Positions 6,001 through 59,100 of a DNA stretch of 64,000 bases are shown one piece after another. The stretch comes from Perna viridis (lineage: Eukaryota). The DNA is taken from the NCBI GenBank assembly GCA_037379345.1, contig CM074512.1, positions 15,438,001 to 15,502,000 of the forward strand, given 5' to 3'. Position numbers: made by a program. Positions within the stretch are counted from its first letter, which is position 1; each line of letters begins with the position of its first letter.

Positions 6001-9000
6001 AAATTCTATCTTTGTCCTGACTTATGTCATATACACAGTATAGAAGTAGGACTTCGACAAAGATACGTTCTCTTCTGCTCAAATATTTGTTTGATATAAT
6101 GTTGTAATTTAACATAAGTAAGCAAGCATAAAAAAACGAAAATATTTTTCAATCTTATAAATACAAGTAAAACCATGCAATGTATGTGAGAATTAAAAAA
6201 AATATATGCAGAATGATAACAATGATGCAAATTGATTAATAAGGAAAATCTAAATGATTTATCCCTTCTGTAACCCCATGCATATTTAATGTTGTCTGGT
6301 CAATTTGCTATATTACATAAAGGTATTAACCAAGCGTCGCGATAAAACCTACCTGAATCGATTTCATACTTTAACACAATATCAAGCTTGGCCTACTGTT
6401 TGCCCAGTCTACTGATCAAATAAATAATATTGAATTTCTTTTTTACCTTATGCAATGAAGGTCATTACTAACAATGTGTCGTTTTCAGGACCACAATTCA
6501 AATTGTATGAGTCATATATTCATTTGTAAAATATTCAATTGACATTTGGTCAATGACGACAGGAAGGTGTATATCTTTGGCGATGTGTAATCTAAAGTAA
6601 GCATTCAATAAACTATAATGAATATATCACCATGATGATTTGTTTTTGACAGGAACTATTCCATAAAGTGATTCCATTGTTTTAAAATATATAAAATGTG
6701 CATCCTTATTCATTGGCAGTTCACTTAAATAATACAAAAGGTCCTTAAACTGTTTTAAATATTTTTTGTTGGTTTTCTTTTCAGAGCCAACAAAGTTTGT
6801 TTGCGAGACTTGTAAAGTTACTCATGAATCAGCATGGTCCTTACTTCAACATGCTCAACGGGAACATGGAATGAAGATATATTACACTCCCCCAATATCA
6901 GAAAATCAACCAGACAACAAACATCACGAAAGCCTACACAAAGAACTTCTTGAATCCAAAAGGTCTCCTCAGTTGCCACATACACCTAAACTCCACGAAG
7001 ATATCCGGGATCATCCCTTGCATTCACATCGTGAACATCACCGAACTCCACCCTCAGCAGGTAGCTCAGCCGGAAGTGGTGATGCAACTATTACGTCACA
7101 TCACTCACCTAATCCATTCATGTTCCGCTTTCCGTTTGAAAGACCTCCTTTATCTCCAAATCTACAATTCAGCCGTCCACAAGGTCCGGAGTTTATAACA
7201 ACCGAACCTCGACATTTGGGATTACTTTTTCCACCACTGGATGCTCCAACGCCACCATTTCCTCATCTTTTCGATAGAAGTCCTCGTCCGATGGGATTCG
7301 ACAACAAAACATTAGAATCTTTCTATTCACAAAGACTGAGAGAATTGGCATCTCGTGATCCTGTTAGTGGTTCTACTTTATCAGGTTCACCTCCAGTAAG
7401 GAAACATACACCTCCATTCTCGCAGGCTGGAACAACGACAACGACTTTGCTTTCACCTCTTGTATCACAGCAGTCATCTCCAAACCCTGTAGATACAGAG
7501 AGATCCCAGCGACCAGACAGTCTTACACCTCCAAGTAAACTGAAGTCTTGTGAATTTTGTGGGAAATCTTTCCGATTTCAAAGCAATCTGATTGTACATC
7601 GAAGATCACACACTGGCGAAAAGCCATTCAAATGTCCACTTTGTCCTCATGCTTGTACTCAGCAAAGTAAGCTTAAGAGGCACATGAAAACGCACATGAA
7701 CAAATCGCCAATGATGTCGCAAATATCTAACTCATCTGATGGGGGCAATCAGGGATCAGGGGAAAGCACCCCCGAGGGAAACAAGAAATTTATGGATGAT
7801 GAAGATGACGAGGATGACGAAGACGAAGAGATGGAAGAAGAGGAAGAAGAAATAGATGAGAGCGAAATGATGGAAGAAGAAATAGCTGAAAGTAGAAAAT
7901 TATCAAACAACAACTTGGAAAAGAAACCAGAATTAAATATCTTCAGTCAAAGTTTTATACCGCCACATTCGCGAAACGGCAGTCTAGGGATGAACTCAGT
8001 TCAAGACAAATCGTCGTTGCTCAAAGAAGTAATGGAAAATACAGGGTTGACAGGCATTCCGACATACAAGGATGCTCTTAAACAGGCTATAGAAGAAAAC
8101 CTGTGTAAAGAAAACTCTGACAATAGTGGGAAAGAAACGAATGATTCTGGCAGCAAAAATGGCAGCATATCTAGGAGAGATGATATGAAATCAGAACCAG
8201 AAAGTAACCAAGGTAGTAGCTCTGATTTAAAACCAACTAACAGCGAACCCGAAAAACCGGTTAAGAGCGAACCACAAGAGGCAGCACATACGCCAATGTT
8301 CAGCTTTGACATGTTTCCTTCCCTTTCTCAATCATTTTGGAGACCGCAAACTGATATTTATCCACTAATACCATTTCCTTTTGACCCAAACCATAACAAT
8401 GGTTTCAATCCTGTGTCATCGGTGGAGAATGCCATGAAGACGTTTACTAACCAAAAAGCACCAGAAAATGTACCATCAACAAACAGTTCTCCTTTGCCAC
8501 GGAAGGATGCACCCAGACGAAATGATACCTGCGAGTTTTGTGGTAAAGTTTTCAGGAACTGTAGCAACCTAACCGTGCACAGACGTTCCCATACTGGTGA
8601 GAAACCCTATAAATGTGCACTATGCAGCTACGCATGTGCACAGTCAAGTAAACTTACGCGGCATATGAGAACACACGGGCGCATTGGGAAGGATGTTTAC
8701 CGCTGCAAGTTCTGCAGTATGCCATTTTCTGTAGCTAGTACCCTTGAAAAGCATATGCGGAAATGCGTTGGGAATGGTCAAATGAAATTGCTGCAGGATT
8801 CTGATTCTCAACAAGATGCATCAAGAATGCTACCAGATTCAGAATCTGATTCGAGTAGTGCTCCATCAAATGCCTATGATTCAGCTAACACACCTACAAG
8901 TATATATGACGCAAATAATCTAGCCAAGAATATGTATGATTCAGGCAACCCCGTTACAAGTATCTTCGATTCAGTCAATTCGACGAAGACTTTGTATGAT

Positions 9001-56100: not shown

Positions 56101-59100
56101 AAGCTTACATATGGTTTAACCAATCCAGGTGAAGCTTCAGATCAAATTTCAAATTACACGTACATGTATCCCAATATAGAGTTGCTGATATTATTACAGC
56201 CAAAAAATAAGAAAATCTTAAAAAAAAAAACAGGAAATTGTGGTTCACTTATCTATGATATAACCCATCAAGATGAAGCTGCAAACCAAATTTCAATTAA
56301 TTTGCATGAAGGACTGATGATGGTTTGCTGAGATTATTACAACATAATTCACTGGAAATACATATTTAAGAACAGCAGTAAAACTTTATGGCTTTAAATC
56401 TTAAACCAAAGACACAGAAATCAAAAATATGGTAACACACAGAGAATAATACATTAAAATACAATTATTTAACACTGCTGAAAATTTAATTTTGTGACAT
56501 TTTATAAGACATTTCTTTAAGATATTAATGTACATACAATTTTTTCATAGAATTCCCTTCTTCTTTCAGCTCGCTTTTTGTAATCAACCATCAATCCTCT
56601 TATTTTCTTTTCTTGCTTTCTTGCTTCTTGCCACATGGTTATACCTTTTTCTGTCAAAAAATAAAAAAAAAGATATCTGTCAACCAATATCATATAGTGA
56701 CATCACTGCACCCCAACTTGAGTTTATGCATTATAGCCACATGGTCAAAATACAAACTGAAAATAGTGGTCATATTAACCTGGAATCAACTCCATATGAT
56801 ATGCTATACCTATATAAAACTTATCAAAATATGAAGTGGCCATGACAAGTAGGCTAGAAAATATCAACTTACATGTGTAGTTAGTATACAGAGTAGGTCT
56901 GAATTTGGTAAGTGTGGTACATTCAACTATTTTCCACTATTTGGGGGAAGGGACCTGGGCCCCATGCAATAGAGCAGTTATGACAAGCTCTGGCATAACA
57001 TATGAGTTGTGACATGAACACTCCATACACAGGTACTCAAGGAATGTTACCACAGATGAAAGGAAAGTTGACAATATTGAATGAAAAGTCATCGCATTTG
57101 TTGTAAAATTTCATCAACAGTTTTCCTTAAGTGTAGGTCAAGATATAAGGCAGACTTCACAGTGTCTGTAACATCTTTAATATCATAATCTTTGGGAATG
57201 ATGTGATGTATAATATCCCTGAAAATAGGATTGTTTAACCATAATACTGTAAACGTAGTAATTTTCACGGTTTCTGAAAAGTCAATATGTTCGCGGGTAT
57301 TAATTTTCGCTGTTTTTTTAGGTTGCAAAAATAAGTTTCTCATTAGTGTAGGCAGTGTTTGATTCCTTTTTTGATCAGTTATTTTACCGTTAATATTTCC
57401 AAAACAATATAATGATGGCCATTATTATGACATAAACAAATGGACAAGTTTCCTATGGCCATTTAAATCTGACAGTGAATTCTTACGTAAATCTATAAAG
57501 AACTCACTTAATTGCCCAAGCCGTAGCTAATTGTATGGATAAACTTTTAACACTTTAATTGCATGTTTACTGATTAACTTTTTATTAACAGTTCTCAGCG
57601 TGTGTATTTAACGGTAATCTTTTATTGATGATTACCTGTAGTGTGTGTTTGACACTTACATTCTGTTCTTTTTGTGAATAGAATGTTTGCACAGTATTGA
57701 TTCTTATTCTTTGATGTGCCAGGTACTCCATGGCCACTGATACAAATCATTATACAAACAAGATCATGAATTAAGAAATTATAACCAACATGCTTTTATC
57801 ATAAACATTTTTTATAAAAAACTTAGTATAAATTTATACTTGATTGCATTGAATGATACAAACCTTACACAATATAAAGTTTCTATCAAAAATTGTGGAA
57901 ACCATAATTATAACCTGGTAATGTGAATATATTTTCGTGTTCTTGAGGCAAATGTGAAAATTAATACGTTTACAGTATATTATCTATATAGTGGAAACAG
58001 AGATTAAAGGATCTAACTAGCAATGTTCCTTCCTTGTGATTATAAAAGTAAATAAATACTTTGATTTGCATTGTTCCTAAATAAAAGGGTAATTGTTTTT
58101 ATATCTTAGTGTTTTGTTTTTTTGTAAAAGTTTAACAAGGAAATGATGAGTTTGCACAGTAGAGCTCTGACACACACAATAATTTCGACAACATTATTTT
58201 CAAATAGGCTTGGGAAAAGGTTACTCTTTGACCAATAGGTAAATTACAGTAACTGTGTAAAGTAGCTGCAGATCTTTTGAAGGAGAGAGTGCTCAACCAC
58301 ACCTACATTGCCTCCCTTTCTTCCCTTTTCCACAAATGCAAGTCGTTACTCCAATTTCATACAGTAAAGGCAGTCAGACCTTGATAGATGCCATTGCTTT
58401 GTAAACAAAAAATTCATATTGTTCTGTTGTTCCGAAAATATCAATCATTTCAAATGTGAATAATCCATCTCTTTAAAACATTGCTCATTTATCAGCTTTT
58501 ACTGTCTTCAAGCAGACCCATCGAAATTTTTTTAAGCACATCTGACATTCGGTCAGACACAAGGTGATGACTTGTCTGACCGAAAAAACTCTAAACAATT
58601 TATCGACACGCTAACATTTTTGATGGGGGGGTGGGAATCTCCAAGTATATTTTAAATAAATAAGTTCGACCCAACAAAATTTCAAATGAAAATTTGTTTT
58701 ATCAGATGTTCAATTATTAATCTTTATCAATTTCGATGTAAAAGAAATATACTTTATTATTTTTTTCATTATTATTTTGACAATATAATGACCGCATGTT
58801 TCACATGTAAACGAGTAGAGGGACAACGGAAGGGACGATATATCAAAGGACGAAATGACGTGTAGCGAATGAACTGGAAGTTACATATTATTGTTTACAA
58901 TCAAATTGATTGACTATCTCGCTAGACTGTAGACTAATTCACGTAATTATTAAAATGTTCTAGTTTTATTATTCACAAAAACCACTTCAGTTTTGAGAAA
59001 ATCTTCTTTAACGTAAGAAAAAAACATCGGACACCCGGGCCGACAAGCAACGTGTATTTACCGGACCTGGGACAATTTTACCGGACAGGTCCGACGGTCC

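What the first reader, a model, noticed from the sequence alone, without database searches (positions are those of the whole stretch)
6785..56636. BCL11-CLASRP tail-to-tail pair mirrors the human ZNF296-CLASRP pair: possible ancient microsynteny
Seen: a BCL11-family gene (+) and CLASRP (-) converge with no other intact gene between them. Known (from memory): human CLASRP at 19q13.32 lies tail-to-tail with ZNF296, the divergent third BCL11-family member; RELB neighbours CLASRP and REL lies near BCL11A. Inference: the linkage may predate the protostome-deuterostome split and be kept as a genomic regulatory block, with BCL11 enhancers near or inside the housekeeping bystander gene.
Basis: partly seen in the sequence, partly recalled or inferred. 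Interest (0 to 1): 0.72.

Follow-up and report, generated by a model that had tools for sequence, protein, structure and literature searches.

The report
Conserved BCL11–CLASRP neighbouring gene pair
In this mussel-like genome the last exon of the developmental regulator BCL11 and the whole splicing-factor gene CLASRP point at each other with only repeats between them, and the same two genes also appear to be neighbours in other molluscs, a tube worm and a tick, so this is a real but not unusual case of ancient gene linkage.

Summary
The terminal exon of a BCL11-family gene lies at 6785-9102 (+). A complete 18-exon CLASRP gene runs from 56636 to 32732 (-). The 23.6 kb between the stop codons holds satellites, an interspersed repeat and a dead LINE fragment, and no other recognisable gene. 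Only the last BCL11 exon is in the window.

The linkage is not chance. In 18 of 21 species where both proteins could be placed in one assembly, they sit on the same contig. In 13 of those 18 their accession numbers are at most 9 apart. These 13 include bivalves, gastropods, one octopus, an annelid (same 354-kb scaffold) and a tick. Pinctada and two octopus species are looser.

The human ZNF296-CLASRP half rests on my recall plus gene lists from papers. ZNF296 is placed in the BCL11 group in print. Invertebrate deuterostomes, gene orientation elsewhere, conserved non-coding elements and a Rel neighbour could not be tested.

Verdict: a conserved ancient microsyntenic pair. It is a candidate genomic regulatory block, but that mechanism is unproven. 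It is a new member of a known kind, of moderate interest.

The parts
6785..9102 (+). Terminal (largest) coding exon of a BCL11-family gene, including stop codon 9100-9102. It equals residues 141-924 of the Mytilus edulis BCL11A-like protein.
6799..6873 (+). First C2H2-like finger of the exon (isolated finger)
   Evidence: translation; weak Pfam match at residues 22-45 of the ORF
7522..7707 (+). Central pair of C2H2 fingers
   Evidence: BCL11B chain 12ul_A E = 8.4e-29; BCL11A 9ylo_A E = 4.7e-28
8497..8766 (+). C-terminal triple C2H2 finger, the DNA-binding module of BCL11A
   Evidence: 9e6r_A, 6u9q_A, 6ki6_A; E about 1e-46 over 90 residues
9103..32731 (.). Stretch between the two stop codons (23.6 kb, includes both 3' UTRs): repeats only, no recognisable gene
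18766..19273 (.). 53-bp tandem array
19300..19798 (.). Interspersed element of about 500 bp, copy 1
   Evidence: families D3-D5
22264..24650 (.). 77-bp satellite, interrupted by copy 2 of the 500-bp element (23007-23508)
25284..25907 (+). Truncated non-LTR retrotransposon ORF2 fragment (208 codons)
   Evidence: no Pfam hit of its own
32732..56636 (-). CLASRP coding region, ATG to TGA: 18 coding exons, 608 codons
56538..56636 (-). CLASRP coding exon 1 (ATG at 56636)
55803..55900 (-). CLASRP exon 2
54610..54708 (-). CLASRP exon 3 (DRY_EERY core)
53668..53750 (-). CLASRP exon 4
53356..53440 (-). CLASRP exon 5
51763..51881 (-). CLASRP exon 6
47991..48087 (-). CLASRP exon 7
46566..46644 (-). CLASRP exon 8
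43451..43524 (-). CLASRP exon 9
42597..42638 (-). CLASRP exon 10
40843..40989 (-). CLASRP exon 11
40074..40343 (-). CLASRP exon 12 (arginine/serine-rich)
39227..39391 (-). CLASRP exon 13
38166..38214 (-). CLASRP exon 14 (small; weak match, E = 0.005)
36474..36537 (-). CLASRP exon 15
34936..34994 (-). CLASRP exon 16
33380..33522 (-). CLASRP exon 17
32732..32786 (-). CLASRP exon 18, with TGA at 32734-32732

Best explanation
This is a conserved ancient microsyntenic pair. A BCL11 transcription-factor gene and the unrelated splicing-regulator gene CLASRP lie 3' end to 3' end.

Shown: the pair is intact here, and the same two genes appear as neighbours or near neighbours in three molluscan classes, an annelid and a tick.

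Inferred: the linkage goes back at least to the protostome ancestor. Because vertebrates keep CLASRP beside the BCL11-family gene ZNF296 (recalled, not tested here), it most likely goes back to the bilaterian ancestor.

Inferred mechanism: regulatory DNA that serves BCL11 lies downstream of it, in the intergenic stretch and/or in CLASRP introns. A chromosomal break between the genes would then cut BCL11 off from its enhancers. This is the genomic regulatory block model, with BCL11 as the target and CLASRP as the bystander.

My confidence by step: non-chance conservation across protostomes about 0.85; homology with the vertebrate ZNF296-CLASRP pair about 0.65; regulatory block as the cause about 0.35-0.4.
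For: Anatomy.

Shared contig: in 18 of 21 species with both proteins in one assembly, both are on the same contig. The small scaffolds among them are Ruditapes philippinarum (194,406 bp), Ridgeia piscesae (353,888 bp), Mytilus coruscus (449,188 bp), Potamilus streckersoni (2,007,227 bp) and Biomphalaria pfeifferi (2,804,895 bp).

Strictly consecutive accessions (5 species):
- Bradybaena similaris: BFZ06977/BFZ06978, locus tags BsWGS_10016/10017
- Dreissena polymorpha: KAH3847802/KAH3847801
- M. coruscus: CAC5380133/CAC5380134
- R. philippinarum: XP_060554756 next to XP_060554754-5
- B. glabrata: XP_055878571 next to XP_055878569-70

Two to nine apart (8 species): M. trossulus, M. californianus, Potamilus, Sinanodonta, B. 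pfeifferi, Ridgeia, Octopus bimaculoides, and the tick Ornithodoros turicata (XP_064484049-52 against XP_064484054-58).

Dreissena supports the proxy: its GenBank numbers are consecutive and its RefSeq numbers are close.

The pair is 3'-3'. That does not fit the shared-promoter route, which favours 5'-5' pairs (PMC3514665, passages). BCL11A is already a predicted regulatory-block target in human (PMC6906185, passages). ZNF296 is placed in the BCL11 group (PMC2889900).
Against: - No conserved non-coding element, enhancer mark or chromatin contact was or could be examined.
- What lies between the genes here is mostly satellites and transposon debris.
- The adjacency is loosened in Pinctada imbricata (accessions 927 apart), O. 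vulgaris (75) and O. sinensis (342), although both genes stay on one chromosome.
- Lingula, Plakobranchus and Limulus have the genes on different scaffolds, which is uninformative or negative.
- In Potamilus, Sinanodonta, Ridgeia and B. pfeifferi, one to five other gene models appear to sit between the two genes.
- Accession order is only a proxy: I saw no coordinates or strands for any other species.
- The human arrangement is recalled. ZNF296 sits in a gene-dense region (recalled), which is not typical of a long-range regulated target.
Confidence: 0.55

Rival explanations
1. Neutral inertia. The two genes are neighbours simply because no rearrangement has happened to separate them in slowly rearranging lineages. 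No function ties them together.
For: The pair is loosened where genomes are known to be reshuffled: octopus accessions are 9, 75 and 342 apart. It is also loosened in Pinctada (927 apart). One to five other gene models seem to intervene in unionid mussels, Ridgeia and B. pfeifferi. The intergenic DNA here is repeat-rich. No constraint was demonstrated.
Against: Close neighbourhood persists in lineages separated since the Cambrian or earlier (divergence ages from general knowledge): bivalves, gastropods, an annelid and a tick. On top of that, a BCL11-family gene is recalled to lie beside CLASRP in human. For two given genes among some 20,000, chance adjacency is of the order of 1e-4 per genome (my estimate).
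Confidence: 0.25
2. The protostome linkage is real, but the human ZNF296-CLASRP neighbourhood arose independently, so the pair is not bilaterian-ancestral.
For: No deuterostome genome was examined here. The papers only place the human genes in one locus. One search listed only the best 120 of its 1471 matches and none was named ZNF296, so no ZNF296 sequence was obtained and I could build no tree.
Against: ZNF296/ZNF342 is grouped with BCL11A, BCL11B and the invertebrate BCL11 genes (PMC2889900; PMC5622089). Independent assembly of the same gene-family pair is very unlikely a priori.
Confidence: 0.15
3. Coupling through the 3' ends. Convergent transcription, overlapping 3' UTRs or a shared chromatin domain co-ordinate the two genes, rather than enhancers embedded for BCL11.
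For: The orientation is convergent here. In human the 3' ends are recalled to be under 1 kb apart. Conserved pairs in general show raised co-expression (PMC3514665).
Against: The stop codons are 23.6 kb apart here, with satellites and a LINE fragment between them, so transcript overlap is improbable in this genome. A developmental transcription factor and a broadly expressed splicing regulator (general knowledge) are not obvious co-expression partners.
Confidence: 0.08

Closest known systems
Human ZNF296-CLASRP pair at 19q13.32 (arrangement recalled; co-location in one locus seen in PMC5897035)
   Same: A BCL11-group zinc-finger gene lies beside CLASRP, recalled as convergent, as in this window.
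   Different: ZNF296 is the short, divergent member of the group. The spacing is recalled as under 1 kb, against 23.6 kb between stop codons here.
Conserved ancient microsyntenic pairs and genomic regulatory blocks (Irimia et al. 2012, PMC3514665; abstract and passages read)
   Same: A developmental transcription factor is kept next to an unrelated gene across phyla. The orientation is not 5'-5', so the regulatory-block route fits better than a shared promoter.
   Different: None of BCL11, CLASRP, SFRS16, ZNF296 or ZNF342 is named in that main text; the supplementary lists were closed. There is no enhancer or conservation evidence here.
Human BCL11A regulatory block with the bystanders VRK2, FANCL and PAPOLG (PMC6906185, passages)
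   Same: A BCL11 gene is the predicted long-range target, with broadly expressed neighbours as bystanders.
   Different: The bystanders differ, the scale is megabases, and CLASRP is absent from that locus.
Dismantled duplicate regulatory blocks that became gene deserts after the vertebrate genome duplications (Touceda-Suarez et al. 2020, PMC7530604; abstract read)
   Same: The pattern fits: one vertebrate copy (ZNF296) keeps the bystander, while the other two (BCL11A, BCL11B) are recalled to have large gene-poor flanks.
   Different: The pair is not named in that main text. No test was done here.

Membership tests
BCL11 (ZFAM2) zinc-finger family | C-terminal triple C2H2 finger closely matching BCL11A | tested here: met
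   90 residues align to human BCL11A chains 9e6r_A, 6u9q_A and 6ki6_A at E about 1e-46
BCL11 (ZFAM2) zinc-finger family | Central double C2H2 finger | tested here: met
   BCL11B chain 12ul_A E = 8.4e-29 and BCL11A chain 9ylo_A E = 4.7e-28; Pfam zf-C2H2, 5 stretches
BCL11 (ZFAM2) zinc-finger family | Best full-length relatives are named BCL11 | tested here: met
   Among the 120 best hits, most named ones are BCL11A/B-like. Top named hit: Mytilus edulis, 75% identity over 100% of the exon.
BCL11 (ZFAM2) zinc-finger family | N-terminal MSRRK-type motif and CCHC finger (Pfam PF25491) | tested here: inconclusive
   The Mytilus relative P0002 has both. The exons that would encode them are not in the window: no match at E < 1 in 1-6784.
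CLASRP (SFRS16) family | N-terminal DRY_EERY domain (PF09750) | tested here: met
   Exon 3 ORF: E = 5.4e-11, 43.3 bits against a cut-off of 25
CLASRP (SFRS16) family | Colinear match to named CLASRP over the whole length, with an arginine/serine-rich C-terminal half | tested here: met
   Sixteen exons match the M. trossulus CLASRP-like protein in order. Exon 18 matched only P0121, weakly (E = 0.51), and exon 14 only a P0121 slice (E = 0.005). The model closes in frame at 608 codons.
Conserved ancient microsyntenic pair | Two unrelated genes linked in several distant animal lineages | tested here: met
   Met by proxy (shared contig, neighbouring accession numbers): same contig in 18 of 21 species, and at most 9 accession steps apart in 13 of those 18, covering molluscs, an annelid and a tick.
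Conserved ancient microsyntenic pair | Linkage also present in deuterostomes | not testable with these tools
   No animal genome collection was open. The human arrangement is recalled; papers show only one shared locus.
Genomic regulatory block | Target is a developmental transcription factor under long-range control | not tested
   Known for human BCL11A (PMC6906185); nothing known for this species
Genomic regulatory block | Conserved non-coding elements or enhancers of the target inside or beyond the bystander gene | not testable with these tools
   No related animal genome DNA was available for comparison
Genomic regulatory block | Bystander broadly expressed and indifferent to those enhancers | not tested
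   No expression data

The most novel reading that the evidence does not exclude
BCL11-CLASRP is a bilaterian-wide regulatory block whose control region lies on the 3' side of BCL11. After the two vertebrate genome duplications, only the ZNF296 copy kept CLASRP. The BCL11A and BCL11B copies lost the CLASRP exons but kept and expanded the regulatory DNA. That would make the large 3' gene deserts that carry their distal enhancers (recalled) descendants of the stretch seen in this window.
Probability: 0.3. Interest if true: 0.65.

Novelty: new member of a known kind. Interest (0 to 1): 0.42.

Why it matters
If the pair is ancestral, three things follow:
- It gives synteny evidence, independent of sequence trees, that ZNF296 is the third vertebrate descendant of the single invertebrate BCL11 gene.
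- It adds one more transcription factor plus bystander pair to the catalogue of ancient linkages.
- It suggests a concrete, testable origin for the enhancer-rich deserts next to BCL11A and BCL11B. Those deserts matter for fetal-haemoglobin control and T-cell development (general knowledge).

For the mussel itself, the result simply says where to look for BCL11 enhancers. The kind of phenomenon is well known, so the gain is incremental.

Tried and rejected
I then sent the stop-to-stop ORF around the same exon, which found only 15 candidates and 9 hits. The wide CLASRP list therefore came from the named Mytilus trossulus protein.
- I did not build or search a joined exon model. Exons were searched one at a time and mapped with database proteins.
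- ZNF296 sequences could not be obtained. One search listed only the best 120 of 1471 hits and none was named ZNF296. The three homologue searches were then spent, so no BCL11A/B/ZNF296 tree was made.
- I spent the single representative search on the largest intergenic ORF rather than on a hunt for ZNF296. It showed that the ORF is retrotransposon debris.
- Rel/NF-kB upstream of CLASRP: none of 10 ORFs from 56.5-63.2 kb gave a match at E <= 0.001. Only 7.4 kb is available, so this says little.
- Nested or intronic genes: none of the 6 intron ORFs, nor the 10 ORFs, reached E <= 0.001.
- Literature searches: CLASRP + synteny 0 papers, SFRS16 + synteny 0, Zfp296 + Clasrp 0. CLASRP/ZNF296/BCL11A gave 15 papers holding at least 2 of the 3 terms; none of the 12 listed titles concerns gene order. 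The main texts of PMC3514665 and PMC7530604 name none of these genes. Supplementary tables, where such pairs would be listed, were closed.
- An assembly artefact in this window is rejected, because three Mytilus species show the same neighbourhood.
- The closed collections metagenome contigs and viral contigs were not used. Genome contigs holds only bacteria and archaea, so it was not spent.

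
Full report
WHAT IS IN THE WINDOW

The window has no N and is about 33% G+C.

It carries five C2H2 fingers. Its closest named relative is Mytilus edulis 'B-cell lymphoma/leukemia 11A-like', at 75% identity over the whole exon. Most of the named proteins among the 120 best hits are BCL11A/B-like, from molluscs, nemerteans, brachiopods, arthropods and vertebrates. The last three fingers align over 90 residues to solved human BCL11A chains (E about 1e-46), and the central pair aligns to BCL11B and BCL11A chains (E about 1e-28).

Only this terminal exon is present. 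It corresponds to residues 141-924 of the Mytilus protein. The first 140 residues hold the N-terminal motif and the CCHC finger PF25491, and they found nothing in 1-6784 at E < 1. The rest of the gene lies upstream of the window.

CLASRP

Each candidate exon ORF was scanned on its own (the DRY_EERY domain on exon 3, E = 5.4e-11). The exons were then mapped with database proteins: the named Mytilus trossulus CLASRP-like protein P0125 and an unnamed close relative P0121. One small exon was found with a slice of P0121.

The result is 18 coding exons from the ATG at 56636 to the TGA at 32734-32732. All 17 introns are GT-AG, no exon has an internal stop, and the lengths sum to 1827 nt, that is 608 codons plus stop. 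The gene looks intact. The joined protein itself was never assembled or searched, so its full-length identity to relatives is not stated.

BETWEEN THE GENES

The stop codons are 23.6 kb apart (9103-32731). Rfam found 0 families and ARAGORN found 0 tRNAs in the whole window. Fourteen ORFs of 74-208 aa lying in this stretch gave no Pfam family at E <= 0.001; the best was a sub-threshold E = 0.0044 (the 10 ORFs and the last 4).

The largest ORF (25284-25907) has 733 relatives at E <= 1e-3. It matches the region around residues 600-850 of proteins of about 1100 residues, and two of those proteins carry endonuclease and reverse-transcriptase domains. It is therefore a truncated non-LTR retrotransposon piece. 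The rest is a 53-bp array, a 77-bp satellite and two copies of an element of about 500 bp. The statement 'no other intact gene between them' holds as far as these scans can see.

IS THE NEIGHBOURHOOD MORE THAN CHANCE?

No collection of animal genomes was open, so I used two proxies from the protein database: the length of the contig that carries each protein, and the accession numbers and locus tags. In genome submissions these usually follow gene order.

Across, both genes could be placed in one assembly for 21 species. In 18 of them the two proteins are on a contig of identical length. For five species that contig is a small scaffold:
- Ruditapes philippinarum, 194 kb
- the tube worm Ridgeia piscesae, 354 kb
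- Mytilus coruscus, 449 kb
- Potamilus streckersoni, 2.0 Mb
- Biomphalaria pfeifferi, 2.8 Mb

In 13 of the 18 the accession numbers are at most 9 apart. Five are strictly consecutive: Bradybaena similaris (also consecutive locus tags), Dreissena polymorpha, M. coruscus, R. philippinarum and B. glabrata. The other eight are M. trossulus, M. californianus, Potamilus, Sinanodonta, B. pfeifferi, Ridgeia, Octopus bimaculoides and the tick Ornithodoros turicata, where the isoform blocks XP_064484049-52 and XP_064484054-58 nearly abut.

Dreissena supports the proxy: its GenBank numbers are consecutive and its RefSeq numbers are close.

Two species (Mercenaria, Mya) share a chromosome, but their accession numbers come from different series.

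Results against the reading:
- Pinctada imbricata is 927 accessions apart, O. vulgaris 75 and O. sinensis 342. All three have both genes on one chromosome.
- Lingula, Plakobranchus and Limulus have the genes on different scaffolds.
- M. edulis and M. galloprovincialis were left out of the count, because their two records come from different assemblies.

I saw no coordinates or strands for any other species, so orientation elsewhere is unknown. In Potamilus, Sinanodonta, Ridgeia and B. pfeifferi, one to five other models appear to lie between the two genes.

THE VERTEBRATE HALF

That human CLASRP and ZNF296 lie tail to tail, with RELB and GEMIN7 on either side, is my recall. The papers I could read only place RELB, ZNF296, CLASRP and GEMIN7 in one chromosome-19 locus (PMC5897035 and PMC6255913, passages).

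That ZNF296 belongs with BCL11 is in print. PMC2889900 lists ZNF342 (the older name), BCL11A, BCL11B, fly CG9650, worm F13H6.1 and Daphnia BCL11 as one orthologous group, and says humans have three homologues (passages). PMC5622089 calls Bcl11a and Bcl11b putative paralogues of Zfp296. PMC8079813 calls Zfp296 a third related factor. I could not make my own tree, because no ZNF296 sequence was obtained.

MECHANISM

Two routes are known to keep unrelated genes together: shared promoters, which favour 5'-5' pairs, and regulatory blocks, in which enhancers of a developmental gene lie in or beyond a bystander gene (PMC3514665, abstract and passages). This pair is 3'-3', one partner is a developmental transcription factor, and human BCL11A is already a predicted block target (PMC6906185). 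The regulatory-block reading is therefore the best available, but nothing here tests it. Neutral persistence remains a serious rival. Coupling through overlapping 3' ends is unlikely in this genome, given 23.6 kb of repeats between the stops.

A bolder reading follows the model of PMC7530604 (abstract): after the vertebrate genome duplications, only the ZNF296 copy kept the bystander, and the BCL11A and BCL11B copies turned the same flank into gene deserts.

REL

No Rel-homology domain was found in 10 ORFs from 56.5-63.2 kb. Only 7.4 kb lies upstream of CLASRP, so this is not informative.

NOVELTY

I found no paper that links CLASRP or SFRS16 with synteny, or Zfp296 with Clasrp (0 papers each). 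None of the 12 listed titles from the CLASRP/ZNF296/BCL11A search concerns gene order. Neither systematic survey names these genes in its main text. Their supplementary lists of about 600 pairs were closed, so the pair may already be catalogued there. [quoted passage not shown] I rate this as a new member of a known kind, of moderate interest.

Noticed in passing
window 47991-51881 (CLASRP intron 6): There is a local duplication inside the intron. 51182-51658 recurs at 49842-50319 at 99% identity. Two decoy copies of the 3' end of exon 6 with its donor (49636-49696 and 49806-49866, 75-89% identical to 51745-51805) lie downstream, together with a 21-bp minisatellite (49682-49791; 51659-51730). 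The decoy donors could affect splicing.
   Followed up: partly
window 18766-19798 and 22264-24650: An element of about 500 bp occurs twice at 85-89% identity (19300-19798 and 23007-23508). One copy abuts a 53-bp tandem array and the other sits inside a 77-bp satellite. This looks like a mobile element that carries or seeds satellites.
   Followed up: partly
window 25284-25907 (+): The largest intergenic ORF is a truncated non-LTR retrotransposon ORF2 piece. It has 733 relatives at E <= 1e-3. Two long relatives carry endonuclease and reverse-transcriptase domains. It has no Pfam hit of its own.
   Followed up: yes
window 56637-56660 (-): The CLASRP start codon is preceded, 14 nt upstream, by an acceptor-like ttttttgacag. 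The ATG exon is therefore probably not the first exon, and a 5' UTR exon should lie further upstream.
   Followed up: no
related proteins: Pinctada imbricata keeps both genes on one 67.9-Mb chromosome, but 927 accession numbers apart. Octopus vulgaris and O. sinensis are 75 and 342 apart, while O. bimaculoides is 9 apart. These may be lineage-specific breaks of the pair, or artefacts of annotation order.
   Followed up: no
related protein P0123 (Mytilus edulis CLASRP model): This 586-residue model carries PF02995 and a sulfatase domain (PF00884) besides DRY_EERY. It is probably a chimeric gene prediction, so I did not use it.
   Followed up: no
window as a whole: The BCL11 exon is 75% identical to Mytilus and the first five CLASRP exons are 86-100% identical to M. 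trossulus. The source is therefore a mytilid-like bivalve, but none of the named Mytilus species. An unnamed record (P0001) is 100% identical over the exon.
   Followed up: partly
window 35064-35134: A perfect (ATAG)n microsatellite of 17.8 copies lies in CLASRP intron 15.
   Followed up: no
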